A stretch of 64,000 nucleotides of DNA, from IMG/VR virus record IMGVR_UViG_3300045988_108820, positions 32,529 to 96,528 of that record; one strand, written 5' to 3'. How positions within the stretch are numbered: position 1 is the stretch's first letter; each line of letters opens with the position of its first letter. The position numbers and the translations under genes are program-made. This document shows, in pieces, positions 1,696 through 15,246 of this stretch. This DNA comes from a virus. Below the pieces are notes generated by a model. That model made no database searches and had not been told where the DNA came from. It worked only from the letters and a program-made list of their open reading frames with translations.

Positions 1696-1890
1696 CTAAA
1701 GGTTGTCCCAGTAATGTTCATAATTACTATTTAATTCTTTCTCAATAAGTATAGCATCTTGAAGATAAGCTTTTAAAAATTGCGAACAATCATCAAATGA
1801 ATTAATATTTCCTTCAAATTCAATATTTAACCATTGTTCACAATATTTTATATCTTCTCTTTGCTTTTCTGTTGATTTAAGAAGTCTCAT
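1696..1890 (-). CDS. hypothetical protein (64 aa)
   Basis: ORF-track frame, co-oriented and only 5 nt downstream of the 1896..2204 gene. No motif recognised. Confidence 0.45.
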   Translation of the reverse strand: MRLLKSTEKQREDIKYCEQWLNIEFEGNINSFDDCSQFLKAYLQDAILIEKELNSNYEHYWDNL

Positions 1891-1895
1891 CGTAA

Positions 1896-2204: not shown

Positions 2205-2240
2205 ACTTTATTACTTTGTTTCTTGTTTTTATTTATTTTG

Positions 2241-2312
2241 TACCCCTAGTAAGACTCGAACTTACATTTCAAGTTTAGGAAACTTGAGTTCTATCCTTTG
2301 AACTATAGGAGT
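2241..2312 (-). tRNA. tRNA-Arg(CCT)
   Basis: Cloverleaf: acceptor ACTCCTA/TAGGGGT (one U-G), anticodon stem CAAGT/ACTTG, loop TTCCTAA, T arm GTAAG-TTCGAGT-CTTAC. Length 72 nt. Confidence 0.85.
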
Positions 2313-2318
2313 TAATAG

Positions 2319-2392
2319 TCTTCCCAGTGAGACTCGAACTCACAACTTATGCTTTAGAAGAGCATTACTCTAATCCATTGAGTTATGGGAAG
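2319..2392 (-). tRNA. tRNA-Arg(TCT)
   Basis: Cloverleaf: acceptor CTTCCCA/TGGGAAG, anticodon stem ATGCT/AGCAT, loop CTTCTAA, T arm GTGAG-TTCGAGT-CTCAC. Length 74 nt. Confidence 0.9.
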
Positions 2393-2395
2393 ATA

Positions 2396-2510
2396 GTGCA
2401 GAGATTAGACTAAAAAATACTTAGTGCATTCTACTATGCTATCCATTCTATTGGCACAGGAGTTTGTCACCTGTTCTCTAAGTATTAGTTTTAGAAAAGA
2501 ATCTCTGCAC
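2396..2510 (-). ncRNA. candidate structured RNA (about 115 nt, nested helices) inside the tRNA array
   Basis: Outer 11-bp helix GTGCAGAGATT (2396-2406) / AATCTCTGCAC (2500-2510). Nested 9-bp helix AATACTTAG (2416-2424) / CTAAGTATT (2478-2486). Inner hairpins ACAGG..CCTGT and GCAT..ATGC. It starts 3 nt from the 5' end of tRNA-Arg(TCT) and has no T-loop, so it is not a tRNA. Confidence 0.35.
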
Positions 2511-2527
2511 ATGGCACGTGAATTTGT

Positions 2528-2557
2528 AATTTATAGGCAATACTAGACCTATAAATT
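2528..2557. other. perfect 10-bp hairpin in tRNA-array spacer
   Basis: AATTTATAGG (2528-2537) and CCTATAAATT (2548-2557) flank a 10-nt loop. Confidence 0.4.
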
Positions 2558-2641
2558 TTGGTTCTACCTTTTATTGTACAATTATTTTGATAGCCTGGAA
2601 TTATTTGGATTTGGTAATTATAGTATTCTATTCCACCCATG

Positions 2642-2715
2642 TGGGCTAGTAGAGGATTGAACTCTAAACCTTCACAGTATCAGTGTGATGCTCTAACCAA
2701 TTGAGCTACTAGCCT
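2642..2715 (-). tRNA. tRNA-Ile(GAT)
   Basis: Cloverleaf: D arm GCTC-AATTGGTTA-GAGC, anticodon stem TCACA/TGTGA, loop CTGATAC, T arm TAGAG-TTCAATC-CTCTA. Acceptor AGGCTAG/CTAGCCC has an A1-C72 mismatch. Confidence 0.8.
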
Positions 2716-2815
2716 ATAATGCTATTGTTTCACAACAACAGCATTAATAAAACAGTATTAACAACCAAAACAGTATTAATAAGACAAATTAACTTTAATG
2801 AAACCTACATAGATT

Positions 2816-3055
2816 CTATTCTTTATCTATTTTAAATAATTTATTGCATAAGTTAAAGCCTGAAATTATTTTGAGTTCAGGTTCAGTTATTAATAAAGCA
2901 CAAGCTAATATTAATAAAGTATCTAATACTACTGTACTTAAGAAAATAAAATATCCCTTGTCTGCTATACTATCTATACCACATATTGAAAACCATACTA
3001 CTAGTATAGTAATCCACAATAAGATACCTTTTACAATTAATTTAATTCTTTTCAT
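2816..3055 (-). CDS. small membrane protein (79 aa, two predicted TM segments)
   Basis: Hydrophobic stretches ILLWITILVVWFSICGI and FIFLSTVVLDTLLILACALLI. Its start overlaps the stop of the upstream lipoprotein gene by 14 nt. Confidence 0.5.
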   Translation of the reverse strand: MKRIKLIVKGILLWITILVVWFSICGIDSIADKGYFIFLSTVVLDTLLILACALLITEPELKIISGFNLCNKLFKIDKE

Positions 3056-3350
3056 TGCTCTTGAAGTTTAGTTCTTTGTGTATTTGTTCTTTTATTTCTT
3101 TTGAAAGATATTGTTTATAAATTTTTCCAGTCCTCTTTGATTTTTTATTTACATAGACTGCCCCACTATTAGTAATATAAATAGGGTATTTATTACCACT
3201 TTTATCTTCCCAAATATATTTAGTTTGTTGTCCTTCACTCTTTGTAGTTTGAGAAGTTACAACTTTAAAGGTATTACCTTCTCTTGTTACTTGAGCACAG
3301 CTTGTACAGCTTAATAAAGCTATAAACAAGCAGAAAATGAACTTTTTCAT
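3042..3350 (-). CDS. putative lipoprotein (102 aa)
   Basis: The N-terminus MKKFIFCLFIALLSC has a signal peptide with a lipobox-like LLSC. Confidence 0.6.
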   Translation of the reverse strand: MKKFIFCLFIALLSCTSCAQVTREGNTFKVVTSQTTKSEGQQTKYIWEDKSGNKYPIYITNSGAVYVNKKSKRTGKIYKQYLSKEIKEQIHKELNFKSNEKN

Positions 3351-3460
3351 TGTTTATTTTGTTTATTTTGTATTATATACTTTATAAATATTACATAAGC
3401 TAACCATAATACTGCTATTTCTATTAATCCTAATATAGATTTTTGAAGTAAATAAATCAT
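3347..3460 (-). CDS. small single-pass membrane peptide (37 aa)
   Basis: Not in the ORF track (below the length cut-off). Sequence MIYLLQKSILGLIEIAVLWLAYVIFIKYIIQNKQNKQ. Its stop overlaps the lipoprotein start as ATGA, suggesting translational coupling. Confidence 0.35.
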   Translation of the reverse strand: MIYLLQKSILGLIEIAVLWLAYVIFIKYIIQNKQNKQ

Positions 3461-3544
3461 AATTTTAATTTTTTAAATCAGTAGAAATAGTTATATATTA
3501 TTATTTTTACAAAGTTCTTGCAAAGGAAAAAGATAGATTGGAAT

Positions 3545-3589
3545 GGGAAAGATGATAGTTTATAAAATTTGCTTGACTATCATCTTCCC
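3545..3589 (-). terminator. hairpin downstream of 3601..3912 gene
   Basis: GGGAAAGATGATAGT (3545-3559) pairs with ACTATCATCTTCCC (3576-3589) with one bulge, 12 nt after the stop. No clear T-run, so the call is tentative. Confidence 0.4.
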
Positions 3590-3600
3590 AATATCAAATC

Positions 3601-3912
3601 TTAGAGACCAAGGTCTACATCTTCCCAAGAGCTATTACCTGGTTTGCAAAGCTTGAAGGTTCCTGACTCAAGCTCAACAACTTGCAAGCTGTCTTTCTGA
3701 GTAGCAATTTGCTGAGGTGTAAGCTCTCCAAGGTTAGAGCTGAAAGCTACAAGAGTAGTAACACCTTCAGAATTAACAAAGGCACAAGACTTGAAAGGTT
3801 CACCAGTTTCCCTGTTTACAAAAGGAGCAACCTTCATCTTACCATGTGCTCTTGCAAAAGAAATCAAAGACCAAGAATTCTTAATACCTACATTCTGTGC
3901 TGTATTAGCCAT
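3601..3912 (-). CDS. early-cassette protein, paralogue A (103 aa), unknown function
   Basis: Identical to the 4760..5071 product at 76 of 103 positions (hand alignment). G+C is visibly higher than in surrounding genes. It has its own upstream conserved element and a downstream hairpin. Confidence 0.7.
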   Translation of the reverse strand: MANTAQNVGIKNSWSLISFARAHGKMKVAPFVNRETGEPFKSCAFVNSEGVTTLVAFSSNLGELTPQQIATQKDSLQVVELESGTFKLCKPGNSSWEDVDLGL

Positions 3913-4022
3913 AATAAACTATCCATTTCAGGACTACTGCATAAATTAAAGTATTATGCTACCTAGCTGCATTACTAAATTAGATCATCAGAGACAGCTA
4001 ACTTCTGATTAATCTTTTTCTA

Positions 4023-4055
4023 TCAAAATATAGGTGGAGTTCTGTTTAGATTAGA
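4023..4055 (-). promoter_or_regulatory. conserved early-cassette upstream element, copy 1
   Basis: The minus strand reads TCTAATCTAAACAGAACTCCACCTATATTTTGA, ending 110 nt upstream of the ATG at 3912. It aligns with copies at 4688-4719 and 5166-5199. Confidence 0.5.
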
Positions 4056-4332
4056 ACTTAACACAATATAAACTTATCACACTAAGCTATTGTTATGATT
4101 AGATTAGTTTAGTGTTAAATTACTAACACTATTAATATGGCATAACTTTTCTATTCTATGCAATAGTTTACATGATTTAAACCTAACAATATTGCTCTAA
4201 GAAAGAAAAGAACCAAAAGAAAGAAACTATTATTTATTATTAATTTATATATTCCTAAAAGAAAGAAATATATAAAGAAAGAAAAGGGTTTAAAAATAGT
4301 GTAAAGTTTGCACTCTACACTATTTGTATTTA

Positions 4333-4632
4333 TCACTCACCTTTCAAGGTTGCAATGAGTTCATTCCTTACATAGTTTGGCATCATTATGCAAGGGAAAC
4401 TATCATTAAAGCTCATAGGACTCTCTACAACATGGAGGTCAAAGAAGCCCCTAGCACTAGAAGAAATAGATATAGGAGTATTATCTCTTATAATTCCAAA
4501 TTCTTCATAAGTAAGGTCTGTCTTAGTTATTTCAAGAACATCACCTTGAAACATAATAGTATCAAAAAGATAATTTACAAGTTCATTACATACAAACTCT
4601 ATAAGTTCATCACAGCTGTTCAAGACTCTCAT
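4333..4632 (-). CDS. small acidic protein (99 aa), unknown function
   Basis: The ORF-track start at 4653 is GTG and the first ATG is at 4632 (MRVLNSCDELIEF...). Hand count gives 16 D/E against 6 K/R. It is preceded by conserved element copy 2. The plus-strand ORF 4324..4644 is its antisense shadow. Confidence 0.5.
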   Translation of the reverse strand: MRVLNSCDELIEFVCNELVNYLFDTIMFQGDVLEITKTDLTYEEFGIIRDNTPISISSSARGFFDLHVVESPMSFNDSFPCIMMPNYVRNELIATLKGE

Positions 4633-4687
4633 AGTAAAGTATAGTTTCCACACTAGAGCAAACTAAAAAAGCTTTAAGTTATTTATA

Positions 4688-4719
4688 TCAAATTATAGGT
4701 GGAGTGTTGTTTGATTAGA
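4688..4719 (-). promoter_or_regulatory. conserved early-cassette upstream element, copy 2
   Basis: The minus strand reads TCTAATCAAACAACACTCCACCTATAATTTGA, about 55 nt upstream of the ATG at 4632 and directly after the hairpin plus T-run that ends the 4760..5071 unit. Confidence 0.5.
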
Positions 4720-4721
4720 TA

Positions 4722-4748
4722 AATAAAAAGAGAGGAGCTAAGCTCCCC
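4722..4748 (-). terminator. short hairpin plus T-run after 4760..5071 gene
   Basis: The minus strand shows GGAGC-TTA-GCTCC followed by TCTCTTTTTATTT. The stem is only 5 bp. Confidence 0.4.
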
Positions 4749-4759
4749 TCCCATCACTC

Positions 4760-5071
4760 TCAGAGTCCAAGGTCTACATCCTCCCAAGTGTCATGACCTG
4801 CCTTGCACAACTTGAAGTGTCCATTCTCCAGCTCAACCACTTGAAGTTCATCCTTCTGTGCTGCAATCTCTGCTGGAGTTAACTCACCAAGATTGCTACT
4901 AAAGGCTACCAAAGTTGTTACTTCATCAGAGTCAATGAATACACAACTCTTGAAATGCTCTCTGGTTTGCTTGTTGATGAATGGAGCTACTTTCATTCTG
5001 CCGTGAGTTTTAGCAAATGAGATTAATGACCGTGAGTTCTTGATACCTACTTCTGTTGCTGTTGTTGCCAT
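4760..5071 (-). CDS. early-cassette protein, paralogue B (103 aa), unknown function
   Basis: Paralogue of 3601..3912 (76 of 103 identical). A rough hand count over about 190 nt gives about 44% G+C against about 30% for typical neighbouring genes. Confidence 0.7.
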   Translation of the reverse strand: MATTATEVGIKNSRSLISFAKTHGRMKVAPFINKQTREHFKSCVFIDSDEVTTLVAFSSNLGELTPAEIAAQKDELQVVELENGHFKLCKAGHDTWEDVDLGL

Positions 5072-5165
5072 AATTATACATTTTAAGGGTTAATAATCAA
5101 AAGTATGTAAGAGTCATGCTAAGATTAGATACCTCAGCAAAGACCCCAGGGGATTATCCCCATTT

Positions 5166-5199
5166 CCAAAAGCTGGGTGGGGTGCTGTTGTAGATTATA
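5166..5199 (-). promoter_or_regulatory. conserved early-cassette upstream element, copy 3
   Basis: The minus strand reads TATAATCTACAACAGCACCCCACCCAGCTTTTGG, preceded by GTGTGG (an extended -10-like TGGTATAAT), ending 94 nt upstream of the ATG at 5071. Confidence 0.5.
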
Positions 5200-5250
5200 C
5201 CACACTCCTACACATCAAATAAAAAAAAATAAAAAAAATTTCAAAAAAAA

Positions 5251-5282
5251 TTTGGTAATTACAAAAATTATCTATAACTTTG
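5251..5282 (+). promoter_or_regulatory. Bacteroidota-type promoter (TTTG-N20-TAACTTTG) heading the rightward block
   Basis: TTTG at 5251-5254 and TAACTTTG at 5275-5282. It sits next to the poly(A) tracts and upstream of the plus-strand tRNA array. Confidence 0.55.
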
Positions 5283-5421
5283 CATAGTTAATTAATAATA
5301 ATAGTCCCAACTATTAATAGTAATAACACTTAATGGGGCTTTAACCTTTCTGAGAGGTTGATGTTGTTTGTTGTTTGTGTTAATTAAACCTCCTTAATCT
5401 GGGAAGATGGAAGAGGTACAT

Positions 5422-5493
5422 GGAGCCATCATCTAATGGTTAGGATACAAGATTTTCAACCTTGAAATAGGGGTTCAATTCCCCTTGGCTCTT
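5422..5493 (+). tRNA. tRNA-Glu(TTC)
   Basis: Cloverleaf: acceptor GGAGCCA/TGGCTCT (G1-U72), anticodon stem CAAGA/CCTTG (31-39 A-C mismatch), loop TTTTCAA, 4-nt variable loop, T arm AGGGG-TTCAATT-CCCCT. Confidence 0.8.
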
Positions 5494-5497
5494 CAAT

Positions 5498-5571
5498 AGA
5501 CTATGAAGTGTAATGGTTTTGCATACCACACTGTCAATGTGGTGGATGGGGTTCAATTCCCCCATAGTCTG
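5498..5571 (+). tRNA. tRNA-Asp(GTC)
   Basis: Anticodon stem CCACA/TGTGG, loop CTGTCAA, T loop TTCAATT between G and C runs, acceptor AGACTAT/ATAGTCT. The D-arm register is ambiguous by 1 nt, so the ends are accurate to about 1 nt. Confidence 0.75.
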
Positions 5572-5573
5572 CT

Positions 5574-5768
5574 ATGATAAAAATATTAAGAAAGGAGGGT
5601 TGGATATTAAACCCTAATGATAAAATAGTAAATGCTATTTTAAAAAGAGTAGAATTAAATAATGGAGAGTGTCCTTGTCAAAATGATAGTAGTGATAAGC
5701 ATTGTCCATGTACAGATTATAGAGATAAAAACTTATGTCATTGTAATCTCTATATCAAGTCAGAGTAA
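5574..5768 (+). CDS. ferredoxin-thioredoxin reductase catalytic-subunit-like Cys-rich protein (64 aa)
   Basis: It carries CPC-x8-CPC-x8-CHC (ECPCQNDSSDKHCPCTDYRDKNLCHCNLYI). This aligns with the CPC...CPC...CHC(M)L(F/Y) signature of FTR catalytic chains. The N-terminal LNPNDKIV..ILKRV also resembles the FTR lead-in. Confidence 0.55.
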   Translation: MIKILRKEGWILNPNDKIVNAILKRVELNNGECPCQNDSSDKHCPCTDYRDKNLCHCNLYIKSE

Positions 5769-5790
5769 TATCTACTCTAGAACTAACTAA

Positions 5791-5863
5791 GGGGTGAGTG
5801 ATGTAATTGGTAACATACTTCCTTTGCAAGGAAGAATTAAGGGTTCAAATCCCTCTTGCTCCA
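5791..5863 (+). tRNA. tRNA-Ala(TGC)
   Basis: Acceptor GGGGTGA/TTGCTCC with the G3-U70 alanine identity pair. Anticodon stem CTTCC/GGAAG, loop TTTGCAA, T arm AAGGG-TTCAAAT-CCCTC. The D-arm register is ambiguous by 1 nt. Confidence 0.8.
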
Positions 5864-6025
5864 CAATATTAACTATAATTTATTAATATGAAAAAGATTT
5901 TATCTTTATTTAAAAGGGGACTTAATGCCTATTTAAATGCATTAGCTAAATGTCCTTATGTACCGTCAGGAACTATCCCAATGGGAGTTTAGTTCCTTTA
6001 ATTTAGAATTAATACTATAATATAT

Positions 6026-6098
6026 TGGCATATAGTATAAAGGTTTATTACGATTGACTGTTAATCAATGAATCAAGGTTCGAGTCCTTGTATGCCAG
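6026..6098 (+). tRNA. tRNA-Asn(GTT)
   Basis: Cloverleaf: acceptor TGGCATA/TATGCCA, anticodon stem ATTGA/TCAAT, loop CTGTTAA, T arm CAAGG-TTCGAGT-CCTTG. Length 73 nt. Confidence 0.88.
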
Positions 6099-6119
6099 CA
6101 TAGAAAAATAATATATAAT

Positions 6120-6350
6120 ATGTGGTTATTGGAAAGTAATAGATCTAAACACCTACTTTATGCAATACCTTCAGCCTATATAGGTACTATATTATTTAGT
6201 ACTGGTTTAGCTTTTGGTATGGAGTTTAAAGATAAACAATATGGTGGTAAATTTGATTGGCTTGATATAGCTGCTACTATGATAGGTGGTATAGTTGGTC
6301 AATTATTGCAGGTTAGTATGATAAGTTTAATCTATTTAACATTTAATTAA
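6120..6350 (+). CDS. small membrane protein (76 aa)
   Basis: Two hydrophobic segments (AYIGTILFSTGLAFG and IAATMIGGIVGQLL). It is embedded in the tRNA array. A weak VanZ-like pattern is not verifiable by eye. Confidence 0.5.
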   Translation: MWLLESNRSKHLLYAIPSAYIGTILFSTGLAFGMEFKDKQYGGKFDWLDIAATMIGGIVGQLLQVSMISLIYLTFN

Positions 6351-6451
6351 TATGGAAGCACTTAATGTTATAATTGGTATTGTAGGTAATGCAATAGTAC
6401 TAGGTCTTATGTATTATTTTCTGGTAAAAAAGAAAGAATAATACTTAGGAT

Positions 6452-6537
6452 GCCTCCATGTTGGAATTAGTAGACAAGTTAGACTTAAAATCTAATAATC
6501 AGTAATGATTATGTGGGTGCAAGTCCCACTGGAGGTA
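6452..6537 (+). tRNA. tRNA-Leu(TAA), second copy, type II, atypical T-loop
   Basis: Acceptor GCCTCCA/TGGAGGT (G1-U72), anticodon stem TTAGA/TCTAA, loop CTTAAAA, long variable arm. T arm GTGGG-TGCAAGT-CCCAC has G at the usual U55 position. Confidence 0.7.
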
Positions 6538-6604
6538 CTATAGCAGCTCTTGAAGGGTGTAGAAAAGCATAGACTTACTAGACTATTTAGACAATCTGCT
6601 ATAA
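6538..6604 (+). pseudogene. possible truncated tRNA-Leu remnant / hairpin spacer
   Basis: TATAGCAG (6540-6547) pairs with CTGCTATA (6596-6603). The interior shares GTAGA..GC.TAGACTTA with the D and anticodon arms of both flanking Leu tRNAs but has no T arm. Confidence 0.25.
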
Positions 6605-6687
6605 ACCCACTTGCTGGAATTGGTAGACAGGCTAGACTTAGGATCTAGTATCTAAATGATGTAAGAGTTCAAGTCTCTTAGTGGGTA
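6605..6687 (+). tRNA. tRNA-Leu(TAG), type II
   Basis: Acceptor ACCCACT/AGTGGGT, anticodon stem CTAGA/TCTAG, loop CTTAGGA, long variable arm, T arm AAGAG-TTCAAGT-CTCTT. Confidence 0.88.
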
Positions 6688-6719
6688 CTAAAAATAATTA
6701 TAAAAAACTTATAAAAAAG

Positions 6720-6750
6720 TTTGTAATTTCAAATAAATTACTTATCTTTG
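6720..6750 (+). promoter_or_regulatory. Bacteroidota-type promoter (TTTG-N19-TATCTTTG)
   Basis: TTTG at 6720-6723 and TATCTTTG at 6743-6750, 14 nt upstream of tRNA-Thr. Confidence 0.55.
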
Positions 6751-6764
6751 TAATTGTTGAAGAT

Positions 6765-6836
6765 GGTCTCTTAGTATAAAGGTTAATATCCTTGCTTTGT
6801 AACCAAGGGATGTAAGTTCGATTCTTACAGGGACCT
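6765..6836 (+). tRNA. tRNA-Thr(TGT)
   Basis: Acceptor GGTCTCT/AGGGACC (one U-G), anticodon stem CTTGC/CCAAG (31-39 C-C), loop TTTGTAA, T arm GTAAG-TTCGATT-CTTAC. Length 72 nt. Confidence 0.82.
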
Positions 6837-6842
6837 CAATAT

Positions 6843-6915
6843 ACAGGGATGTTAGCAGTGGTAGCTAGTTAGCCTCATAAGCTAAAGGTCGTGGGTTCGA
6901 CTCCCACTCCCTGAA
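6843..6915 (+). tRNA. tRNA-Met(CAT) (elongator, initiator or Ile2 identity unresolved)
   Basis: D arm TAGC-AGTGGTA-GCTA, anticodon stem TTAGC/GCTAA, loop CTCATAA, T arm GTGGG-TTCGACT-CCCAC. The acceptor register is ambiguous, giving either an A1-A72 mismatch or a 4-bp T stem. Ends are accurate to about 1 nt. Confidence 0.75.
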
Positions 6916-6987
6916 CAAATTAAAATTAATAAATATATCTTCTTTGAAGAATACTTTATCTAGTGTATCATATATAAAAATAACACT

Positions 6988-8493: not shown

Positions 8494-8524
8494 AAGCTCA
8501 TGATTAAATTCATGAGCTTTTTTA
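8494..8524 (+). terminator. rho-independent terminator
   Basis: AAGCTCATGA (8494-8503), loop TTAAAT, TCATGAGCTT (8510-8519), then a T-run. Confidence 0.65.
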
Positions 8525-8538
8525 GTTTTTACTTTGAT

Positions 8539-8712
8539 ATGAAGAAATGCAGTAAATGTAATAGACTTTTACCAGAAAGTTCTTTTAAACTTAGGAAAGG
8601 TAAACTATATTATATGTGCAGAGAATGCGAAAAAGAGTACATGAGAGATAATCATATGAATATTATAAAATTAGCTAACTATTTGATAAAGGATGAAACT
8701 GTTCAGATATGA
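8539..8712 (+). CDS. zinc-ribbon protein (57 aa)
   Basis: The start is trimmed to MKKCSKC... because the ORF-track start at 8500 lies inside the terminator hairpin. It carries CSKC...CREC. Confidence 0.5.
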   Translation: MKKCSKCNRLLPESSFKLRKGKLYYMCRECEKEYMRDNHMNIIKLANYLIKDETVQI

Positions 8713-9241: not shown

Positions 9242-9504
9242 TGAATATAATAAATAGTATAAATAATGTATTAACAAAGGGAGAATTATTATTACATATA
9301 GAACCAACTTCCACAGCTATAAAATCTGTGTTGAAAATTAACTATAAATTGTACATTCTAACTAAAGATAATGAATCTCCAAAAGAGATTCTTTTCTTCT
9401 CTAGTACTCTAACACCTGGGAATGTAATAAGTGATTTAGATGAATGGGCTACTCAAGAGATACTTAAATTTGTTATACATGGAGGGTTAAGAGATTATGA
9501 ATAA
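9238..9504 (+). CDS. hypothetical protein (88 aa)
   Basis: ORF-track frame. It overlaps the upstream stop by 4 nt and the terminase start by 8 nt. Confidence 0.5.
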   Translation: MMNIINSINNVLTKGELLLHIEPTSTAIKSVLKINYKLYILTKDNESPKEILFFSSTLTPGNVISDLDEWATQEILKFVIHGGLRDYE

Positions 9505-12500
9505 ATACCAAACAGAGTATTCTAAAGAATATATAGAGTCATTACCTAAAGAAGTTCAAGAACAATACTATGACTTTATAACTAGTGTACCTTATATATC
9601 AAAGCTACTTTCTGATAATAGAAAGTATGCTAAAGATTTACCTAGAGATAATGAGGGAAAGATAATAATAGATGTTACAGAACCACATATTTTAGAAAAT
9701 ACAGATTACTTTAGACCTAGTGCTATTCATTATCAACAATATGGTTGTTACACTAAATTAAAACCTAATGCTAATCCTAATAGTGAATATGGTAAATGGA
9801 TTAGAGAAGAGGTTAGAAGGTGTTGGGAAGGTTATATTAGACCAGAAGATGGAGAATGGATAACAGGGGATATGTATTTCTTTCTTAACTATTGTCCTAT
9901 ACAATTAATTAAAAAAGATAGTAATGGTAAGTCTATTAGAACTATTGACTTTCCTAAATTTTGGGATGGACATTATTATAAATTTCATTATTTAAATCAA
10001 TGTAGAAATGAAGGACATCATGCCGCAGAATTAGCTAGTAGAGGTAAGGGAAAAGCACACCCTTATAGCCAAAAAATATTAACTCCTTTTGGATGGAAAT
10101 ACTGGGGAGACATACAAATTGGTGACTATATTTATGGAGATAATGGAGAATTAACAAAAGTAGTAGATATTCCTTATGATGAAGTGTCTGATATATACAC
10201 TGTTACTTTATTAGATGGTAGAAAAGTACAATGTACAAATGGGCATTTATTTAAAGTAAAGAATCATAAAACAAAAAGAATAGAAATAAAACCTCTAATT
10301 GAAATTATTAAAGATTACAAGAGTACTAGAAAAGTATCTAATAAAACCCCAAATGGTATAGAATATAATTATAGAATACCAAAAATTACTAATGCTGTTT
10401 ACTTCCCTTCAAAGAGAGTACCAATAGACCCTTATACTTTAGGTTTGTTACTAGGTGATGGGTGCTTTAGAGTAATCTCAGCAAAGAACTATGTACTATT
10501 TACTTGTGATAAAGAAGATTATTACACTTATGAAGAAAACATACCTTACAAGATAGATAAAGTAACAAATAATAATTATACTCATGCTATAAGATTTTCT
10601 GTAGAACCTTTAATTAATTATAAATTATATGGATTAAAATCAGAGCATAAATTTATACCTAGAGACTACCTAGTAAATGATAGAAATGTGAGATTAGAAA
10701 TACTTAGAGGACTTATGGATTCAGATGGAACAGTGGATAAAACTTCTGGTATTCCTGTCTTTAGTACTACATCTGAGAAATTAAAGGAGGATTTTATATT
10801 CTTATGTAGGTCTCTAGGATATAATGTATCTTGTTCTTTACATGATTCAAAATTTAATAATATAACATATAAAAGTCATTATAGAATTAGAGTTATAACA
10901 AATGACCCTATCTTTAAATTAGGAAGGAAATTAAAGTTACTTAATAATTTTACTTCTAGCTATGCTAAAAGTAAGAGAGATTATACTACAATTATAGATA
11001 TTCAATACTCACATAAAGAACAAGCAAAGTGTATAACAGTTAATAACGAGTCACATTGTTATATAATAGGAGATTTTGTAGTAACTCATAATTCATATAG
11101 TGCAGCATCAATGTTAGCTAAAAGATTTATACTAGGAGAATCTAATGATGTAAAGAAGAAAGTACAATGTGTTGCTACAGCTAGTGAGAGAAAATATATT
11201 CAAGGAGCTAACCAACTACTTGATATGTTTCAATACTACATTGATTTCTGTGCTAACAATACAGAGTTTCCTAGACAAAGAATCACTTCCTCTTTACAGA
11301 ATTTAGCATGGACTATGGGCTATGTAGACTCTGAAACTAATACTAGGAGGGGAACTGAAAATAGTGTTATAGGTATTACTTCTAAGGATGATGAATCTAA
11401 GCTTAGAGGTTCTAGAGGTGTATTGTATCTTCTAGAAGAAGCAGGTTCATTTCCTAGACTATTAAATTTGTATCAAGTGCTAAGACCATCTGTAGAAGAT
11501 GGTAATAGTGTTTGGGGATTAATTTATTTATATGGTACAGCTGGTGATAGTGATTCTGACTTTAGTTCTATGCAAGAATTAATGTATAACCCTAAAGGTT
11601 ATAATATTAAAGCAATAAATAATGTTTATGATAAAGAGGGTCAAGGAAGAAAGCAGTTTACATACTTTTTTCCTGGTTATATGAATAGAGCTGATTGTTA
11701 TGATAAAGATGGAAATAGTGATGTCAATAAAGCCCTTATTGAAATACTTTTAGATAGGTATAAAGTAAAGTATAATAGTACTGATATTAATGCAATTACT
11801 AAGAGAATTGCAGAAATTCCTATAACTCCACAAGAAGCTATATTAAAGACTAAAGATAATATATTCCCTATCACAGAGTTAACTAAGAGACTTAATGAAA
11901 TTGATAATAATCCTAATTTCTTTGATGATATTTATGTTGGAGATTTAGCTTTTAATAAACAAGGTAAAGTAGAGTTTAATGCTACAACTACAGACACTCC
12001 TATAAGAGACTTTCCTACTAAAGATAATAAAGTACAAGGAGCAATAGAAATATATGAAATGCCCCAAGAGATACATGGTAAAGTTCCTAATGAAAGATAT
12101 ATTTTATCACTAGATAACTATGAAAATGATCAAGCCCAATCAATGTCATTGGGTAGTGTATTTGTGCTAGATCTATGGACTGATAGAATTGTAGCAGAAT
12201 ATACAGGAAGACCTATGTTTGTTGATGATTTAAATGAAATATGTAGAAAGTTATGTTTATTTTATAATGGTAAAGTGATGGTAGAAAATAATAAGAAAAA
12301 TACCTTTGCCTACTTTAGTAAAATGAATAGTTTACATCTAATGGCTGATACTCCAGAATATCTTAAGAATAAACAAATATTAAAAGTCAACACATTTGGT
12401 AATGCAAGTAAGGGATGTCCTGCTACAGTACCTGTGATTAATTTTTCTATGGAAAGATTAAGAGATTGGCTACTAAAACCTGTAACTGTAACAGAAGAAT

Positions 12501-12748
12501 CTAATGGGGAATCAATATCTACTACAATCCCCAATCTACACTTTCTAAAGAATAGAGCTTTAATTAAAGAATTAATGCTTTATAATCCTGCTATTAATGT
12601 AGATAGAATTATGTCTATGTGTCAACTCATGTTATATAGAGAAGAAAAGATGATTCTTTATCAAGGAGAACCTAGAAGAGCAGAGAAAAGAATTGATTCT
12701 ACTTATCTAGGAAATGATCCATTCTTTAATAAAAACTATAAACAGTAA
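9497..12748 (+). CDS. terL: terminase large subunit, interrupted by an intein (1083 aa precursor)
   Basis: Removing residues 187-532 joins ...ELASRGKGK to SYSAASMLAKRF..., restoring a GKGKS Walker A P-loop. A Walker-B-like VLYLLEEAG lies downstream, and the gene sits immediately upstream of the portal-sized ORF. Confidence 0.8.
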   Translation: MNKYQTEYSKEYIESLPKEVQEQYYDFITSVPYISKLLSDNRKYAKDLPRDNEGKIIIDVTEPHILENTDYFRPSAIHYQQYGCYTKLKPNANPNSEYGKWIREEVRRCWEGYIRPEDGEWITGDMYFFLNYCPIQLIKKDSNGKSIRTIDFPKFWDGHYYKFHYLNQCRNEGHHAAELASRGKGKAHPYSQKILTPFGWKYWGDIQIGDYIYGDNGELTKVVDIPYDEVSDIYTVTLLDGRKVQCTNGHLFKVKNHKTKRIEIKPLIEIIKDYKSTRKVSNKTPNGIEYNYRIPKITNAVYFPSKRVPIDPYTLGLLLGDGCFRVISAKNYVLFTCDKEDYYTYEENIPYKIDKVTNNNYTHAIRFSVEPLINYKLYGLKSEHKFIPRDYLVNDRNVRLEILRGLMDSDGTVDKTSGIPVFSTTSEKLKEDFIFLCRSLGYNVSCSLHDSKFNNITYKSHYRIRVITNDPIFKLGRKLKLLNNFTSSYAKSKRDYTTIIDIQYSHKEQAKCITVNNESHCYIIGDFVVTHNSYSAASMLAKRFILGESNDVKKKVQCVATASERKYIQGANQLLDMFQYYIDFCANNTEFPRQRITSSLQNLAWTMGYVDSETNTRRGTENSVIGITSKDDESKLRGSRGVLYLLEEAGSFPRLLNLYQVLRPSVEDGNSVWGLIYLYGTAGDSDSDFSSMQELMYNPKGYNIKAINNVYDKEGQGRKQFTYFFPGYMNRADCYDKDGNSDVNKALIEILLDRYKVKYNSTDINAITKRIAEIPITPQEAILKTKDNIFPITELTKRLNEIDNNPNFFDDIYVGDLAFNKQGKVEFNATTTDTPIRDFPTKDNKVQGAIEIYEMPQEIHGKVPNERYILSLDNYENDQAQSMSLGSVFVLDLWTDRIVAEYTGRPMFVDDLNEICRKLCLFYNGKVMVENNKKNTFAYFSKMNSLHLMADTPEYLKNKQILKVNTFGNASKGCPATVPVINFSMERLRDWLLKPVTVTEESNGESISTTIPNLHFLKNRALIKELMLYNPAINVDRIMSMCQLMLYREEKMILYQGEPRRAEKRIDSTYLGNDPFFNKNYKQ
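10055..11092 (+). mobile_element. intein (346 aa) with double-motif LAGLIDADG homing endonuclease
   Basis: Block A-like AHPYSQKILTPFGWKYWGDIQIGDYIYG, block B TNGH, LAGLIDADG motifs LGLLLGDGCF and LRGLMDSDGTV. Block F is AKCITVNNESHCY and block G is FVVTHN followed by Ser +1. Confidence 0.8.
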
Positions 12749-12837: not shown

Positions 12838-15246
12838 ATGAGTGAATTTTTGCAATTTCCACCTCAGCAACTTCCTATGAGTAAGAAGACAAAGAAATGG
12901 AGAAAGCAGATTCTTGATTGGGGTTCTAATAGGGCTACTATCAGTAGTTCATTAGTTAGGAAAAGTGTAATACATAAAAAGATTAATTATGATCTACTCA
13001 ATGGTATAATACACCTTAATGATATGATGACTATAATTAATCCAGATAATATACAAGCACAGTTTATTCCTAATAAAATTCAACATTACCCTATTATGAA
13101 TTCTAAACTCAATGTCTTGAGAGGTGAAGAGTCTAAAAGGGTCTTTGACTTTAGAGTTGTTATCACCAACCCTAATTCCATCTCAGAAATTGAGAATAAT
13201 AAGAAGCAAGCTTTACTCCAAGATATACAACAAGCAGTTGCTGATGAGTCACAATCAGAGGAAGAATTTAATGCTAGATTAGAGAAACTGAATGATTATT
13301 ATACATTTGAATGGCAAGATATGAGAGAAGTAAGAGCCAATGCTTTACTTAATCATTATGCTAAGGAGTATAATATGCCCCTTATATTTAATAAGGGATT
13401 CATGGATGCTATGACAGTTGCTGAAGAAATTTATCAATGTGATATTGTAGGAGGTGAACCTGTTATTGAAAAGCTTAATCCAAATAAAGTTAGAATTTAT
13501 AAATCAGGATATTCTAATAGAATAGAAGATGCTGATGTTATTGTAGTGGAAGACTACTGGAGTCCTGGCAGAATAATTGATACCTATTATGATGTATTAT
13601 CTAATAAAGATAGAGAATATATAGAAAATTTACCAGATTCTACAGGAGAAAGTGGAAGTGAATCTACTTACTTTTCTAACCCTAGAAATGAATTTATTAG
13701 GGTAGAAGATACATCACTTGGAGATGCTGTCTATAAAGATGGTTTCTTCTGGTCTCCAACAGGAGAAGGAAATAGTTCCATGAATTCTATGTTACCTTAT
13801 GATATAGAAGGTAATATCAGAGTAGTTAGAATGTTTTGGAAATCTAGAAGGAGAATTAAGAAAATTAAATATTATGATGAGAATGGTGAAGAACAGTTTA
13901 AGTTTAGAGATGAAAACTATGTAGTCAACACTGATTTAGGAGAAGAAGAACAAATACTTTATGTTAATGAAGCTTGGGAAGGTACTAAGATAGGTGAAGA
14001 TATCTATGTTAATATGAGACCAAGAGTAGTTCAATATAATAGATTAAGTAATCCTTCAAGATGTCACTTTGGTATCATAGGTTCTATTTATAATCTTAAT
14101 GACGATAGACCTTTTTCATTAGTGGATATGATGAAACCTTTTAACTATCTCTATGATGCTATCCATGATAGATTAAATAAGTTATTAGCTAAAAACTGGG
14201 GTAGAATAGTAACTCTAGATTTAGCTAAAGTTCCTACTGGATGGGATGTAGAGAAATGGCTCTATTTTGCAAAGACAAATAACATTGCAGTAGTAGATAG
14301 TTTCAAAGAAGGTAATATTGGTGCAGCTACAGGTAAGTTAGCTGGTGCTATGAATAATGCTTCTAGTGGAGTTATTGATGCTGAGCTTGGTAATTCTATA
14401 CAACAGAATATTAATTTACTTGAGTTTATCAAGATGGAAATGTCTGATGTAGCAGGTATTTCTAAGCAAAGAGAAGGTCAGATTTCAAATAGAGAAACTG
14501 TAGGTGGTGTAGAAAGAGCTACATTACAATCTTCACATATTACTGAGTGGCTATTTGTAATCCATGAGGATGTTAAGAAAAGGGCTTTAGAGTGCTTTCT
14601 TGAGACAGCTAAGATAGCTCTTAGAGGTAGAAGTAAGAAGTTCCAATATATTCTTTCTGATGGCTCTATGAAGGTTATGGATATTGATGGTGATGAATTT
14701 GCTGAGGCTGATTATGGTCTTGTGGTTGATAATAGTAATGCTATACAAGAGTTACAACAAAAGATGGATATGCTAGCTCAGGCAGCCCTACAAAATCAAA
14801 CATTAAATTTCTCTACTATTATGAAACTATATAATAGTTGTTCTATGGCTGAGAAGCAGAGAATAGTTGAAAGAAATGAACAAGAACTGATACAAAGACA
14901 GCAAGAAGCACAACAGCAACAGCTTCAACAGCAGCAACAACAAGCTGAAATGGAAGCCCAAGCTAAGGAACAAGAGATGCAGTTGAAAGATACAATGAAT
15001 CAAAGGGATAATGAAACTAAGATTCTAGTAGCTACAATATCTGCTAACTCAAATCAAGAAAGTGATGATGGTGTTCAAGAACAACCATTTTCAGAGGAAG
15101 CTAGAGCTAATCTACTTGAGAAGATGAGACAATTTGATCAAAAAATGAAATTAGATAGAGAAAAACTAGAATTGGATAAATATAAGTCTAGAGAGGATAT
15201 TAGACTAAAAGAAAAATCATTAAATAAGAAAACTAATATTAAATAA
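12838..15246 (+). CDS. putative portal protein (802 aa)
   Basis: Large ORF directly downstream of terL, as in the crAss-like gene order. Its size fits, and it has a Q-rich coiled C-terminus (QQQQLQQQQQQ). No motif check is possible by eye. Confidence 0.6.
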   Translation: MSEFLQFPPQQLPMSKKTKKWRKQILDWGSNRATISSSLVRKSVIHKKINYDLLNGIIHLNDMMTIINPDNIQAQFIPNKIQHYPIMNSKLNVLRGEESKRVFDFRVVITNPNSISEIENNKKQALLQDIQQAVADESQSEEEFNARLEKLNDYYTFEWQDMREVRANALLNHYAKEYNMPLIFNKGFMDAMTVAEEIYQCDIVGGEPVIEKLNPNKVRIYKSGYSNRIEDADVIVVEDYWSPGRIIDTYYDVLSNKDREYIENLPDSTGESGSESTYFSNPRNEFIRVEDTSLGDAVYKDGFFWSPTGEGNSSMNSMLPYDIEGNIRVVRMFWKSRRRIKKIKYYDENGEEQFKFRDENYVVNTDLGEEEQILYVNEAWEGTKIGEDIYVNMRPRVVQYNRLSNPSRCHFGIIGSIYNLNDDRPFSLVDMMKPFNYLYDAIHDRLNKLLAKNWGRIVTLDLAKVPTGWDVEKWLYFAKTNNIAVVDSFKEGNIGAATGKLAGAMNNASSGVIDAELGNSIQQNINLLEFIKMEMSDVAGISKQREGQISNRETVGGVERATLQSSHITEWLFVIHEDVKKRALECFLETAKIALRGRSKKFQYILSDGSMKVMDIDGDEFAEADYGLVVDNSNAIQELQQKMDMLAQAALQNQTLNFSTIMKLYNSCSMAEKQRIVERNEQELIQRQQEAQQQQLQQQQQQAEMEAQAKEQEMQLKDTMNQRDNETKILVATISANSNQESDDGVQEQPFSEEARANLLEKMRQFDQKMKLDREKLELDKYKSREDIRLKEKSLNKKTNIK

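What the first reader, a model, noticed from the sequence alone, without database searches (positions are those of the whole stretch)
10055..11092. Class-3-like intein with LAGLIDADG endonuclease splitting the terminase P-loop
Excision of residues 187-532 fuses ...SRGKGK to SYSAAS..., recreating a GKGKS Walker A motif. The insert has these features:
- Ala at position 1 (AHPYSQKIL...).
- Block B TNGH, followed by Phe where class 3 inteins have Trp.
- Two LAGLIDADG motifs (LGLLLGDGCF and LRGLMDSDGTV).
- Block F AKCITV, with Cys at the position normally occupied by Asp.
- Block G VVTHN, followed by Ser +1.

Class 3 inteins lack an N-terminal nucleophile and use a block-F Cys with a block-G Thr (the WCT triplet). 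They are linked to phage genes. I infer that this is a class-3-type intein (an FCT variant) in the most conserved ATPase motif of the packaging motor, so splicing would be obligatory for packaging.
Basis: partly seen in the sequence, partly recalled or inferred. Interest (0 to 1): 0.65.

Follow-up and report, generated by a model that had tools for sequence, protein, structure and literature searches.

The report
Mobile class-3-type intein in crAss-like terminase
The terminase (DNA-packaging motor) gene of this human-gut crAss-like phage is interrupted, exactly inside its ATP-binding loop, by a 346-residue self-splicing intein with a homing endonuclease; it is real and apparently still mobile, but of an already well-described kind.

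Summary
Window 10055..11092 is an exact, in-frame 346-codon insertion in the large terminase gene (9497..12748). Intein-free alleles that are 91% and 99% identical in protein read ...ELASRGKGK|SY... at exactly this point.

The insert has a high-confidence Hint plus LAGLIDADG fold. Its closest relatives are proven class 3 inteins, and its Cys326 aligns with the catalytic Cys118 of the M. smegmatis DnaB-1 intein.

It carries these splicing residues:
- Ala1
- His at B:10
- Cys at F:4
- Thr-His-Asn at G:5-7
- Ser at +1

The one departure from the class 3 signature is Phe66 at B:12, where Trp is usual. Among 242 related inteins, 212 have the WCT triplet and 10 have FCT.

The host site is a true Walker A loop. 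A model of the intein-free allele shows strand, RGKGK loop, then helix, and its best structural match is T4 gp17.

DNA comparisons point to recent homing:
- The intein has diverged less than its host gene (dS 0.22 against about 0.55).
- dN/dS is about 0.05 in both the splicing and endonuclease parts.
- Substitutions cluster at the insertion site.

Class 3 inteins in phage terminases, P-loop intein insertions and inteins in crAss-like terminases are all published. I rate this a new member of a known kind, of modest interest.

The parts
9497..12748 (+). Large terminase (TerL) precursor gene, 1083 aa including the intein; the mature protein is predicted at 737 aa.
   Evidence: - ORF listing.
- The spliced sequence hits PHROG 6681 'terminase large subunit' at 1.9e-102.
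- A model of the intein-free allele matches T4 gp17 (3CPE, 9.9e-13), HK97, D6E and P74-26 terminases.
- The portal gene follows at 12838..15246.
10034..10054 (+). N-extein half of the Walker A motif (A-S-R-G-K-G-K), ending in the P-loop lysine at position -1.
   Evidence: - The motif ASRGKGK|S fits [AG]xxxxGK[ST].
- R-G-x-x-K-S is conserved across diverse Crassvirales TerLs.
- In the model of intein-free P0027, a strand spans 175-180, a loop 181-185 and a helix 186-200.
10055..11092 (+). The intein, 346 aa: a Hint splicing domain with an inserted LAGLIDADG homing endonuclease.
   Evidence: - The insertion is exact relative to intein-free alleles.
- The model has pLDDT 90.8 and matches PI-SceI, TliVMA and PI-PfuI.
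- Homologues were found.
10055..10093 (+). Block A (AHPYSQKILTPFG). Ala1 (10055-10057) is not a nucleophile.
   Evidence: - Alignment.
- Position 1 is Ala in 150 of 221 aligned relatives.
10211..10258 (+). Block B (LDGRKVQCTNGHLFKV): Thr61 (B:7), His64 (B:10) and Phe66 (B:12, 10250-10252). Phe66 sits where class 3 inteins usually have Trp.
   Evidence: -.
- B:10 is His in 268 of 270 relatives.
- B:12 is Trp in 221 relatives and Phe in 16.
10439..10468 (+). First LAGLIDADG motif (LGLLLGDGCF), with the acidic residue retained.
   Evidence: - Sequence.
- This region is nearly invariant in the family alignment (P131, Y132, G135, G139, D140, G141 in the numbering of alignment A1).
10703..10735 (+). 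Second LAGLIDADG motif (LRGLMDSDGTV), with the acidic residue retained.
   Evidence: - Pfam LAGLIDADG_3 covers residues 212-282 and Hom_end covers 202-298.
- The motif aligns to FLAGLIDSDGYV of PI-SceI.
11024..11068 (+). Block F (AKCITVNNESHCYII). Cys326 (11030-11032) sits at F:4 and is the predicted branch-point nucleophile.
   Evidence: - Cys326 aligns with Cys118 of 6BS8 (PMC6195587).
- The column is Cys in 240 of 240 relatives.
- It lies at the end of the long strand 315-334 of the model.
11069..11092 (+). Block G (GDFVVTHN): Thr344 (G:5), His345 (G:6) and Asn346 (G:7).
   Evidence: Thr in 236 of 240 relatives, His in 231 of 240, Asn in 240 of 240.
11093..11095 (+). Ser+1 (codon TCA). It is both the first C-extein residue and the Walker A Ser.
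   Evidence: -.
- The codon is TCA in both intein-containing alleles and AGT in both intein-free alleles.
9976..11134 (+). Putative co-conversion tract and homing-site flanks. These are extein nt 480-600, about 79 nt upstream and about 42 nt downstream of the intein.
   Evidence: Against the 97.8%-identical intein-free allele, 18 of 121 positions differ here and 31 of 2093 elsewhere (Fisher p = 1.5e-11). Nearly all the differences are synonymous.

Best explanation
A full-length mobile intein of the class 3 lineage sits between Lys186 and Ser187 of the Walker A P-loop (ASRGKGK|S) of the large terminase of a crAss-like (Steigviridae-type) gut phage.

**Proposed splicing pathway.** This is inferred from homology to experimentally dissected class 3 inteins.
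1. Because residue 1 is Ala, the thiol of Cys326 (block F:4) attacks the Lys186-Ala1 peptide bond. His64 (B:10) assists, and Thr344 (G:5) positions that His. The result is a block-F thioester branched intermediate.
2. The N-extein is passed to the hydroxyl of Ser+1.
3. Asn346 cyclises with help from His345 and releases the intein.
4. An O-to-N acyl shift restores the native GKGKS P-loop and gives a 737-aa terminase.

Phe66 replaces the usual B:12 Trp as the hydrophobic packing residue next to His64.

**Proposed mobility.** The internal LAGLIDADG endonuclease cuts intein-free terminase alleles of co-infecting related phages. Repair then copies the intein and short flanks into them (homing).

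**Consequence.** The insert splits the ATP-binding loop, so splicing should be needed to make an active packaging ATPase.
For: **Shown here**
- The insertion is exact relative to intein-free alleles at 91% and 99% protein identity.
- The Hint plus LAGLIDADG model has pLDDT 90.8. Its best structural matches are PI-SceI (2.7e-17), the TliVMA intein and PI-PfuI.
- The nearest solved Hint domains by sequence are the class 3 inteins 6BS8 and 6RIX/6RIY.
- Cys326 aligns with the proven nucleophile Cys118.
- In relatives, F:4 is Cys in 240/240, G:5 is Thr in 236/240, G:7 is Asn in 240/240 and B:10 is His in 268/270. Position 1 is mostly Ala, and +1 is Thr or Ser in 220/239.
- Of 242 paired intein regions, 212 carry WCT and 10 carry FCT.
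- A cultured, plaque-forming crAss-like phage, DAC15, carries a 44%-identical WCT intein at the same TerL site.

**Host site**
- The extein matches the TerL PHROG at 1.9e-102.
- The intein-free model shows a strand, the RGKGK loop and a helix. Its top fold match is T4 gp17.

**Mobility and selection (window against P0146)**
- The intein is 95.3% identical in DNA and 97.4% in protein, while the exteins are only 87-90% identical.
- Intein dS is 0.22, against 0.54-0.56 in the exteins, and extein dS falls towards the junction.
- dN/dS is 0.038 in the Hint part and 0.060 in the endonuclease part.
- Substitutions cluster at the junction against the intein-free allele (p = 1.5e-11), and the Ser+1 codon switches between TCA and AGT.
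- Among the 120 closest TerL clusters, 118 have no intein. This sporadic distribution is typical of a mobile element.

**Literature**
- Class 3 mechanism and signature: PMC2807308, PMC5222942 and PMC6195587.
- W67F in the prototype intein keeps about 50% splicing at 30 C.
- An MCT intein was shown experimentally to be class 3 (PMC7891396).
Against: - No experiment exists. Splicing, the block-F branched intermediate and endonuclease activity are all inferred.
- The canonical B:12 Trp is absent. Trp-to-Ala mutations abolish splicing in three class 3 inteins (PMC5222942).
- Grafting Ala1, Trp and Cys onto gp41-1 did not produce a working class 3 intein (PMC7664689). The signature alone therefore does not guarantee the mechanism.
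- The Pfam splicing-domain profiles score below their curated cut-offs: Intein_splicing 19.5 bits against 35.8, and Hom_end_hint 15.4 against 32.1.
- The residue statistics come from sequences selected for similarity to the query, and the block models were trained on Cys-containing relatives, so they are not an unbiased sample.
- I could not read the model coordinates, so the distance from Cys326 to the scissile bond was not measured.
Confidence: 0.85

Rival explanations
1. The intein splices by a class 2-like route. Ser+1 attacks the N-terminal scissile bond directly, and Cys326 is only structural or regulatory.
For: - Ala1 is shared with class 2 KlbA inteins.
- Block B keeps the class-1/2-like Thr at B:7 (TNGH) and lacks the class 3 Trp.
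- Tori and Perler note that inteins with the class 3 signature could in principle use either route until Cys F:4 is mutated (PMC5222942).
Against: - F:4 is Cys in every aligned relative (240/240), and G:5 Thr is nearly invariant.
- Class 2 inteins have Asp at F:4 and Cys at +1 (PMC2807308).
- A Ser hydroxyl attacking an unactivated amide directly is unfavourable.
- The intein's nearest relatives are proven class 3 inteins.
Confidence: 0.06
2. The intein is a decaying, splicing-impaired remnant because of the loss of Trp at B:12. This terminase allele would then be non-functional or only partly functional, for example in a defective phage or an assembly of a dying lineage.
For: - Trp B:12 substitutions impair splicing in tested class 3 inteins.
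- 118 of the 120 closest TerL clusters lack the intein.
Against: - dN/dS is 0.04-0.06 across both intein domains between two alleles whose dS is 0.22.
- All other catalytic residues are intact.
- The FCT state is shared by relatives only 41-53% identical, namely P0149, P0006, P0158 and P0191.
- The P0146 cluster alone has 147 member sequences.
- The window has an uninterrupted set of large structural ORFs.
- W67F kept about half of splicing activity in the prototype.
Confidence: 0.04
3. The intein splices but no longer moves. Its endonuclease is inactive, and its patchy distribution reflects vertical inheritance with repeated precise loss.
For: - Endonuclease activity was not tested.
- Many inteins carry dead endonucleases.
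- A scan of IMG/VR found no further copies.
Against: - The intein has diverged less than its host gene (dS 0.22 against about 0.55), with a gradient in the flanks.
- Flank substitutions cluster at the junction, and the Ser codon switch segregates with intein presence.
- dN/dS in the endonuclease part is 0.060.
- Both LAGLIDADG acidic residues are retained.
Confidence: 0.1

Closest known systems
Class 3 inteins with LAGLIDADG endonucleases in actinobacteriophage proteins. Examples are the MP-Be DnaB prototype, the helicase intein of Mycobacterium phage Alice gp175 (recalled as the Catera gp206 type), and the mycobacteriophage TerL1-c/d/e inteins (PMC2807308; PMC5050341; bioRxiv 10.1101/2025.01.02.630785).
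   Same: - Non-nucleophilic residue 1, Cys at F:4, Thr-His-Asn at G:5-7 and Ser/Thr at +1.
- An in-frame LAGLIDADG endonuclease.
- A phage ATPase as host.
- Full-length alignment to Alice gp175 at 30% identity.
   Different: - B:12 is Phe, not Trp.
- B:7 is Thr.
- The host is a Bacteroides-type crAss-like phage, not an actinobacteriophage.
- In mycobacteriophages the class 3 TerL inteins were reported at sites c, d and e. The paper did not state, in the parts I read, which class occupies the P-loop sites a and b.
M. smegmatis DnaB-1 intein (PDB 6BS8) and M. chimaera DnaB1 intein (6RIX/6RIY). Both are class 3 mini-inteins inserted in a P-loop.
   Same: - They are the best sequence matches among solved Hint domains.
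- They have the same P-loop GK|S/T type of insertion.
- The catalytic Cys118 aligns with Cys326.
- All end in THN.
   Different: - They lack the endonuclease domain.
- They have Trp67 and a DxxH block B.
- They sit in bacterial DnaB helicases.
TerL inteins of other crAss-like phages. These include Bacteroides phages DAC15 and DAC17, cr111_1, and the Delta- and Zeta-group genomes described by Yutin et al. 2021 (PMC7886860).
   Same: - The same host gene.
- For DAC15 and cr111_1, the same P-loop site and the same intein family, at 44% and 37.5% identity.
   Different: - Those copies have the canonical WCT triplet.
- The published descriptions mention TerL inteins for the Delta and Zeta groups and do not assign a splicing class.
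- This copy is in a Steigviridae-like (Beta-group) genome.
gp41-1 intein (6QAZ), and its engineered Ala1/Trp/Cys variant (6RIZ).
   Same: - Phe at B:12, a C-terminal THN followed by Ser+1, and detectable sequence and structure similarity.
- The window's intein is in effect gp41-1-like at B:12 but carries Ala1 and Cys at F:4.
   Different: - gp41-1 is a split class 1 intein with Cys1 and Asp at F:4.
- The engineered class-3-like variant did not splice (PMC7664689).
AceL NrdHF intein (6ZGQ), a natural class 3 intein with an MCT triplet (PMC7891396).
   Same: It is a natural class 3 intein that lacks Trp at B:12 and was shown experimentally to use the block-F Cys.
   Different: - It is a split mini-intein.
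- It has Met rather than Phe at B:12.
- It lacks the block F and block G histidines.
- Its host protein is different.

Membership tests
Inteins (Hint-domain protein-splicing elements) | An in-frame insertion that is absent from orthologues, with precise boundaries. | tested here: met
   The gap is exactly residues 187-532 against cr116_1 TerL and against P0027.
Inteins (Hint-domain protein-splicing elements) | Splicing blocks A, B, F and G, with His at B:10, a C-terminal Asn, and Ser/Thr/Cys at +1. | tested here: met
   His64, Asn346 and Ser+1 are present.
Inteins (Hint-domain protein-splicing elements) | A Hint fold. | tested here: met
   The AlphaFold2 model has pLDDT 90.8. Foldseek matches PI-SceI, TliVMA, PI-PfuI, Prp8 and gp41-1 inteins.
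Inteins (Hint-domain protein-splicing elements) | Pfam splicing-domain profiles (PF14890, PF05203) score above their curated cut-offs. | tested here: not met
   Scores were 19.5 bits against a cut-off of 35.8, and 15.4 bits against 32.1. This shows that these two profiles are insensitive to this lineage. It is not a defining biological feature.
Inteins (Hint-domain protein-splicing elements) | Actual excision of the intein and ligation of the exteins. | not testable with these tools
   This needs protein expression followed by a western blot or mass spectrometry.
Class 3 inteins | No Cys, Ser or Thr at intein position 1. | tested here: met
   Residue 1 is Ala.
Class 3 inteins | Cys at block F position 4. 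| tested here: met
   Cys326 aligns with Cys118 of 6BS8. The column is Cys in 240 of 240 relatives.
Class 3 inteins | Thr at block G position 5. | tested here: met
   Thr344 is present. The column is Thr in 236 of 240 relatives.
Class 3 inteins | Trp at block B position 12, the first letter of the WCT signature. | tested here: not met
   - The residue is Phe66.
- This is a signature feature, not a mechanistic requirement.
  - A survey of 1702 class 3 inteins selected them by the absence of a residue-1 nucleophile plus Cys at F:4. It lists FCV (7), FCS (1), MCT, NCT and HCT variants, but no FCT (PMC7891396 Table S1).
  - The MCT intein was proven to be class 3.
  - W67F keeps about 50% splicing.
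Class 3 inteins | Ser or Thr, rarely Cys, at +1. | tested here: met
   Ser+1 is present.
Class 3 inteins | Groups by sequence with experimentally proven class 3 inteins. | tested here: met
   - The top solved Hint-domain hits are 6BS8 and 6RIX/6RIY.
- 88% of the 242 nearest intein regions carry WCT.
- It aligns over its full length to Alice gp175.
Class 3 inteins | An obligate block-F thioester branched intermediate: the Cys F:4 mutant is dead, and N-terminal cleavage occurs without the +1 nucleophile. | not testable with these tools
   This needs mutagenesis and thiol-lability assays.
LAGLIDADG homing endonucleases (intein-borne, two-motif monomers) | Two LAGLIDADG motifs with conserved acidic residues and an I-DmoI/PI-SceI-like fold. 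| tested here: met
   - The motifs lie at residues 129-138 and 217-227.
- Pfam matches LAGLIDADG_3 and Hom_end above their cut-offs.
- Foldseek matches PI-SceI and I-DmoI.
LAGLIDADG homing endonucleases (intein-borne, two-motif monomers) | Site-specific cleavage of the intein-free allele. | not testable with these tools
   There is only indirect support: the intein is younger than its extein, there is a co-conversion-like tract, and dN/dS is 0.06.
Large terminase (TerL) ASCE ATPase; the insertion lies in Walker A | A terminase fold, with the motif forming a strand-loop-helix P-loop. | tested here: met
   - PHROG 6681 at 1.9e-102.
- In the model, a strand spans 175-180, the RGKGK loop 181-185 and a helix 186-200.
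- Foldseek matches T4 gp17 at 9.9e-13, plus HK97, D6E and P74-26 TerL.
- No residue-level superposition was available.

The most novel reading that the evidence does not exclude
The FCT inteins of crAss-like terminases combine Ala1 and Cys at F:4 with a class-1-like block B (TxxH, then Phe at B:12, as in gp41-1). They may be natural intermediates between gp41-1-like class 1 inteins and canonical WCT class 3 inteins.

If they splice efficiently, two things would follow:
- The class 3 pathway does not need the B:12 Trp.
- Class 3 inteins could have arisen from class 1 by ordinary divergence. That would run against the separate-origin proposal of Beyer et al. 2020 (PMC7664689).
Probability: 0.12. 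Interest if true: 0.55.

Novelty: new member of a known kind. Interest (0 to 1): 0.3.

Why it matters
**Annotation.** A 1083-aa terminase ORF in a crAss-like phage should be read as a 737-aa terminase plus a 346-aa intein. Related intein-containing proteins are named "hypothetical protein" or "DarB-like antirestriction" in public records.

**Biology.** Class 3 inteins appear to be actively homing among very abundant human-gut phages, in a Beta-group (Steigviridae-like) lineage. This copy targets the ATP-binding loop of the packaging motor. Splicing would therefore be a compulsory maturation step and a possible control point for virion production.

**Protein engineering.** A naturally conserved Phe at B:12 offers a ready-made test of how much the signature Trp matters in class 3 splicing.

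None of this changes current understanding; it extends known patterns to a new host group.

Tried and rejected
**Searches that found nothing useful**
- *Solved terminase by sequence.* phmmer with the spliced extein, and a profile of 18 diverse Crassvirales TerL ATPase domains, both found nothing in the PDB. Pfam also had no hit for the extein. The P-loop assignment therefore had to come from a structure model plus Foldseek.
- *IMG/VR scan.* A scan for close relatives of the intein found nothing that tblastn confirmed.
- *Paper not held.* Tori and Perler 2011 (PMC3133030), on the expanded definition of class 3 inteins, is not in the library.

**Comparisons that gave weak or unusable results**
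- *Co-conversion against cr116_1.* Identity near the junction was 80% against 85% overall, which is no clear signal at that divergence. The signal became clear only with the 97.8%-identical allele.
- *Neighbour-joining tree.* A tree of 193 related inteins timed out. I replaced it with an identity ranking. Whether the FCT inteins form one clade is therefore not resolved.
- *C-extein dN/dS.* The first calculation was invalid because an indel put the sequences out of register. I repeated it on the first 280 codons. The "elsewhere" mismatch counts for P0146 and cr116_1 have the same register problem and are not used.

**Alternatives considered and rejected**
- *A different intein start.* A start at the upstream Ser181 is excluded by the intein-free alleles.
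- *A second intein or an intron in the window.* None was found with the family block models or with Rfam.

**Not possible**
- Model coordinates are not exposed, so I could not measure the geometry between Cys326 and the scissile bond.
Full report
**What is there**

The window encodes a 1083-aa ORF at 9497..12748 on the + strand. Residues 187-532 (nt 10055..11092) translate to AHPYSQKILTPFGW...IIGDFVVTHN. Deleting them joins ...ELASRGKGK to SYSAASMLAKRF.... Megablast against GenBank phages found crAss-like phage cr116_1 (NC_055882; Steigviridae, Pamirivirus). It matched over exactly 68% of the query in two pieces at 85.9% identity. Its annotated terminase large subunit is followed by the portal gene, as in the window.

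A global protein alignment is 90.9% identical, with a single gap of exactly residues 187-532. The cr116_1 protein reads ELASRGKGK|SYFAAAM across that gap. A search of 5.8 billion proteins with the spliced sequence then returned 120 top clusters at 91-99% identity. Of these, 118 are 736-742 aa and have no intein. The best, P0027, is 99% identical and reads SRGKGK|SYYAAS.

**What the insert is**

*Profiles and sequence hits.* Pfam finds LAGLIDADG_3 (1.6e-8) and Hom_end (5.7e-7) above their cut-offs. The two intein splicing-domain profiles fall below theirs. Against PDB sequences, the Hint part matches the M. smegmatis DnaB-1 intein 6BS8 (1.6e-5), gp41-1 (2.1e-4) and the M. chimaera DnaB1 intein 6RIX/6RIY. 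The endonuclease part matches PI-PkoII and PI-SceI.

*Structure.* An AlphaFold2 model, built with 5 extein residues on each side and a 22-sequence alignment, has mean pLDDT 90.8 and pTM 0.90. Foldseek places it with full-length endonuclease-containing inteins: PI-SceI at 2.7e-17, TliVMA at 1.4e-16 and PI-PfuI. It also matches I-DmoI and mini-inteins, including gp41-1.

*Size of the family.* There are 17,158 representative proteins with E <= 1e-3 and 1117 with E <= 1e-30. Matches occur in 837 GenBank phage records.

**Which class of intein**

6BS8 and 6RIX are class 3 inteins. In 6BS8, Cys118 at block F:4 is the experimentally proven first nucleophile (PMC6195587; PMC5222942). HMMER aligns the window's QAKC(326)ITVNNESHCYIIGD-FVVTHN with PVRC(118)VEVDNPEHLYLAGPGMVPTHN.

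A MAFFT alignment of the insert with 26 database homologues, the DAC15 and cr111_1 terminases and Mycobacterium phage Alice gp175 shows the same columns throughout. Alice gp175 is a helicase whose intein I recall as the Catera gp206 type. The shared columns are:
- a non-nucleophilic residue 1 after G-x-G-K;
- H-L-W in block B;
- Cys in "x-C-[IV]-x-V";
- T-H-N followed by Ser or Thr.

I then built block models and applied them to the 150 best representative proteins plus the earlier hits.

| Position | Residue counts among aligned relatives |
|---|---|
| 1 | Ala 150/221 |
| B:10 | His 268/270 |
| B:12 | Trp 221, Phe 16, Leu 11 |
| F:4 | Cys 240/240 |
| G:5 | Thr 236/240 |
| G:7 | Asn 240/240 |
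| +1 | Thr 124, Ser 96, Cys 19 |

Of 242 paired intein regions, 212 carry WCT, 10 FCT, 6 NCT, 2 HCT and 2 LCT. These sequences were chosen for similarity to the query, so the sample is biased. They still show that the insert sits inside the class 3 lineage and that its Cys is at F:4.

The only departure from the class 3 signature is Phe66 at B:12. Three published results bear on it:
- A survey of 1702 class 3 inteins lists WCT 1685, FCV 7, MCT 1, NCT 3, HCT 1, FCS 1, WCS 3 and WCC 1, but no FCT (PMC7891396 Table S1).
- The same paper proves that an MCT intein uses the class 3 route.
- In the prototype MP-Be DnaB intein, W67F gave about equal amounts of precursor and product at 30 C and was rescued at 15 C (PMC2807308).

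Phe is shared by relatives of the window's intein that are only 41-53% identical: P0149, P0006, P0158 and P0191. These are interspersed in the identity ranking with WCT copies. Phe66 is therefore a tolerated natural state, not a lesion.

**The host site**

The spliced protein hits the terminase PHROG 6681 at 1.9e-102. It has no Pfam or PDB sequence match, even with a profile. I therefore modelled the intein-free allele P0027 with a 64-sequence alignment, giving mean pLDDT 86.5. In the model a strand at 175-180 leads into a loop at 181-185 (RGKGK), and a helix begins at residue 186. This is the classic P-loop arrangement, with the insertion point at the loop-helix boundary. Foldseek's best matches are T4 gp17 (3CPE, 9.9e-13), HK97, T7, D6E and P74-26 terminases and the RB49 gp17 nuclease domain.

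R-G-x-x-K-S is conserved across diverse Crassvirales terminases. A conserved LLEE motif lies about 110 residues downstream, and G-T-x-G lies about 30 residues further on. From my own knowledge of T4 gp17, this matches the Walker A, Walker B and C-motif spacing of terminases.

Insertion between the P-loop Lys and Ser/Thr is the "classic" P-loop intein site (PMC5050341). Most relatives found here sit at G-x-G-K|[ST] of PhoH-like, DnaB, RecA, helicase or terminase proteins. That an unspliced precursor cannot package DNA is an inference from the broken P-loop. It was not tested.

**Evidence that the element is alive and moving**

*The same intein in a different terminase background.* P0146 represents a cluster of 147 sequences. 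Its intein is 97.4% identical in protein and 95.3% in DNA to the window's, but its exteins are only 87-90% identical in DNA.
- Synonymous divergence is 0.22 in the intein, 0.56 in the N-extein and 0.54 in the C-extein. It falls to 0.39-0.45 in the 60-70 codons nearest the intein.
- dN/dS is 0.038 for the Hint part and 0.060 for the endonuclease part.

*Comparison with the intein-free allele P0027 (97.8% identical in DNA).*
- 18 of the 49 differences fall within extein nt 480-600 around the junction, that is 18 of 121 positions against 31 of 2093 elsewhere (Fisher p = 1.5e-11). Almost all are synonymous.
- The Ser+1 codon is TCA in both intein-containing alleles and AGT in both intein-free alleles.

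Together these results fit homing with co-conversion of short flanks, and perhaps target-site immunity. They argue against a decaying or immobile element. A cultured crAss-like phage, DAC15, carries a 44%-identical WCT intein at the same site. Inteins of this family at this site are therefore compatible with a viable phage.

**Comparison with what is known**

- Class 3 inteins were defined on a mycobacteriophage protein and were noted early on in terminase large subunits (PMC2807308).
- Mycobacteriophage TerL carries inteins at seven sites. Two are in the P-loop, and class 3 inteins occupy sites c, d and e (PMC5050341).
- A 2025 survey counted 287 class 3 inteins in actinobacteriophages, mostly in TerL and Cas4.
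- For crAss-like phages, Yutin et al. reported TerL inteins in the Delta and Zeta groups and said that alpha-gamma genomes lack such insertions. They assigned no splicing class (PMC7886860; review PMC10136315).

What this window adds is modest:
- a class 3 assignment for crAss-like TerL inteins;
- an FCT triplet that was not in the 2020 survey;
- presence in a Steigviridae-like lineage;
- population-level signs of ongoing homing.

**Verdict**

The mechanism rests on strong homology and has not been tested by experiment. I estimate about 0.85 for class 3 splicing, and essentially certainty that the insert is an intein. It is a new member of a known kind. Interest is about 0.3.

Noticed in passing
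window 8500..8712 (+); compare L005 2632-3216: The 70-aa ORF just upstream of the terminase operon is an internally deleted copy of a 194-aa Endonuclease_7 (PF02945) gene. The intact gene is present in the 97.8%-identical intein-free relative, and one is annotated in cr116_1. The first 48 and the last ~22 residues match almost exactly (one substitution in the tail), and 124 codons, including the catalytic part, are missing in frame. This genome has therefore lost a free-standing endonuclease and carries an intein-borne one in TerL. I did not explore whether the two facts are connected.
   Followed up: partly
P0114, a TerL 94% identical to the window's extein. The equivalent site in the window is just after VLYLLEEAG at 11420..11446.: A close relative has an intact P-loop but carries a different, class-1-type (Cys1) LAGLIDADG intein directly after the Walker B motif (LLEESG|CHLKG...TIVHN|TFPRLL). 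Two unrelated inteins therefore target two ATPase motifs of the same terminase in one phage population.
   Followed up: partly
Representative proteins P0147-P0295, for example P0204, P0196, P0200, P0209 and P0227.: Crassvirales terminases carry inteins of this family at four or more further sites. Some proteins hold two or three inteins. The sites, with their equivalents in the window, are:
- ...YE|CNKKG, equivalent to VMVE|NNKKN in the window;
- GN[KQ]|SKG, equivalent to TFGNA|SKG;
- KDNK|CKG, equivalent to KDNK|VQG;
- PDK|[SC]RGK, equivalent to DESK|LRG.
   Followed up: no
L002 1898-5230 (DAC15 YP_010106262.1); L004 1054-3993 (Alice gp175); other rows.: RefSeq names several intein-containing proteins "DarB-like antirestriction". 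These include the DAC15 terminase, the Alice helicase, and proteins of Clostridium phage phi8074-B1 and Klebsiella phage Miami. The shared element is this intein family, so the name looks like an annotation carried over through the intein.
   Followed up: partly
window 651..6916, both strands: There is a dense array of 15 tRNA genes, 7 on the - strand and 8 on the + strand. It includes two tRNA-Leu(TAA), tRNA-Ile(TAT) and tRNA-Trp(CCA). No suppressor tRNA was called.
   Followed up: no
P0150 and P0157: Two divergent Crassvirales terminases have Tyr where the Walker A Lys should be (T/A-R-G-R-G-Y|S), directly before their P-loop intein. This is unexpected for an active ATPase.
   Followed up: no
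P0008 (192 aa): A metagenomic fragment is 91% identical to the window's N-extein and intein start. After block B (...CTDGHLFKVKNHTTNKD...) it diverges into unrelated sequence. This could be a misassembly or a disrupted intein copy.
   Followed up: no
window 12838..15246 (+): The portal protein (PHROG 6547, 3.2e-141) has a Gln/Glu-rich, low-complexity C-terminal tail (...QQEAQQQQLQQQQQQAEMEAQAKEQE...).
   Followed up: no
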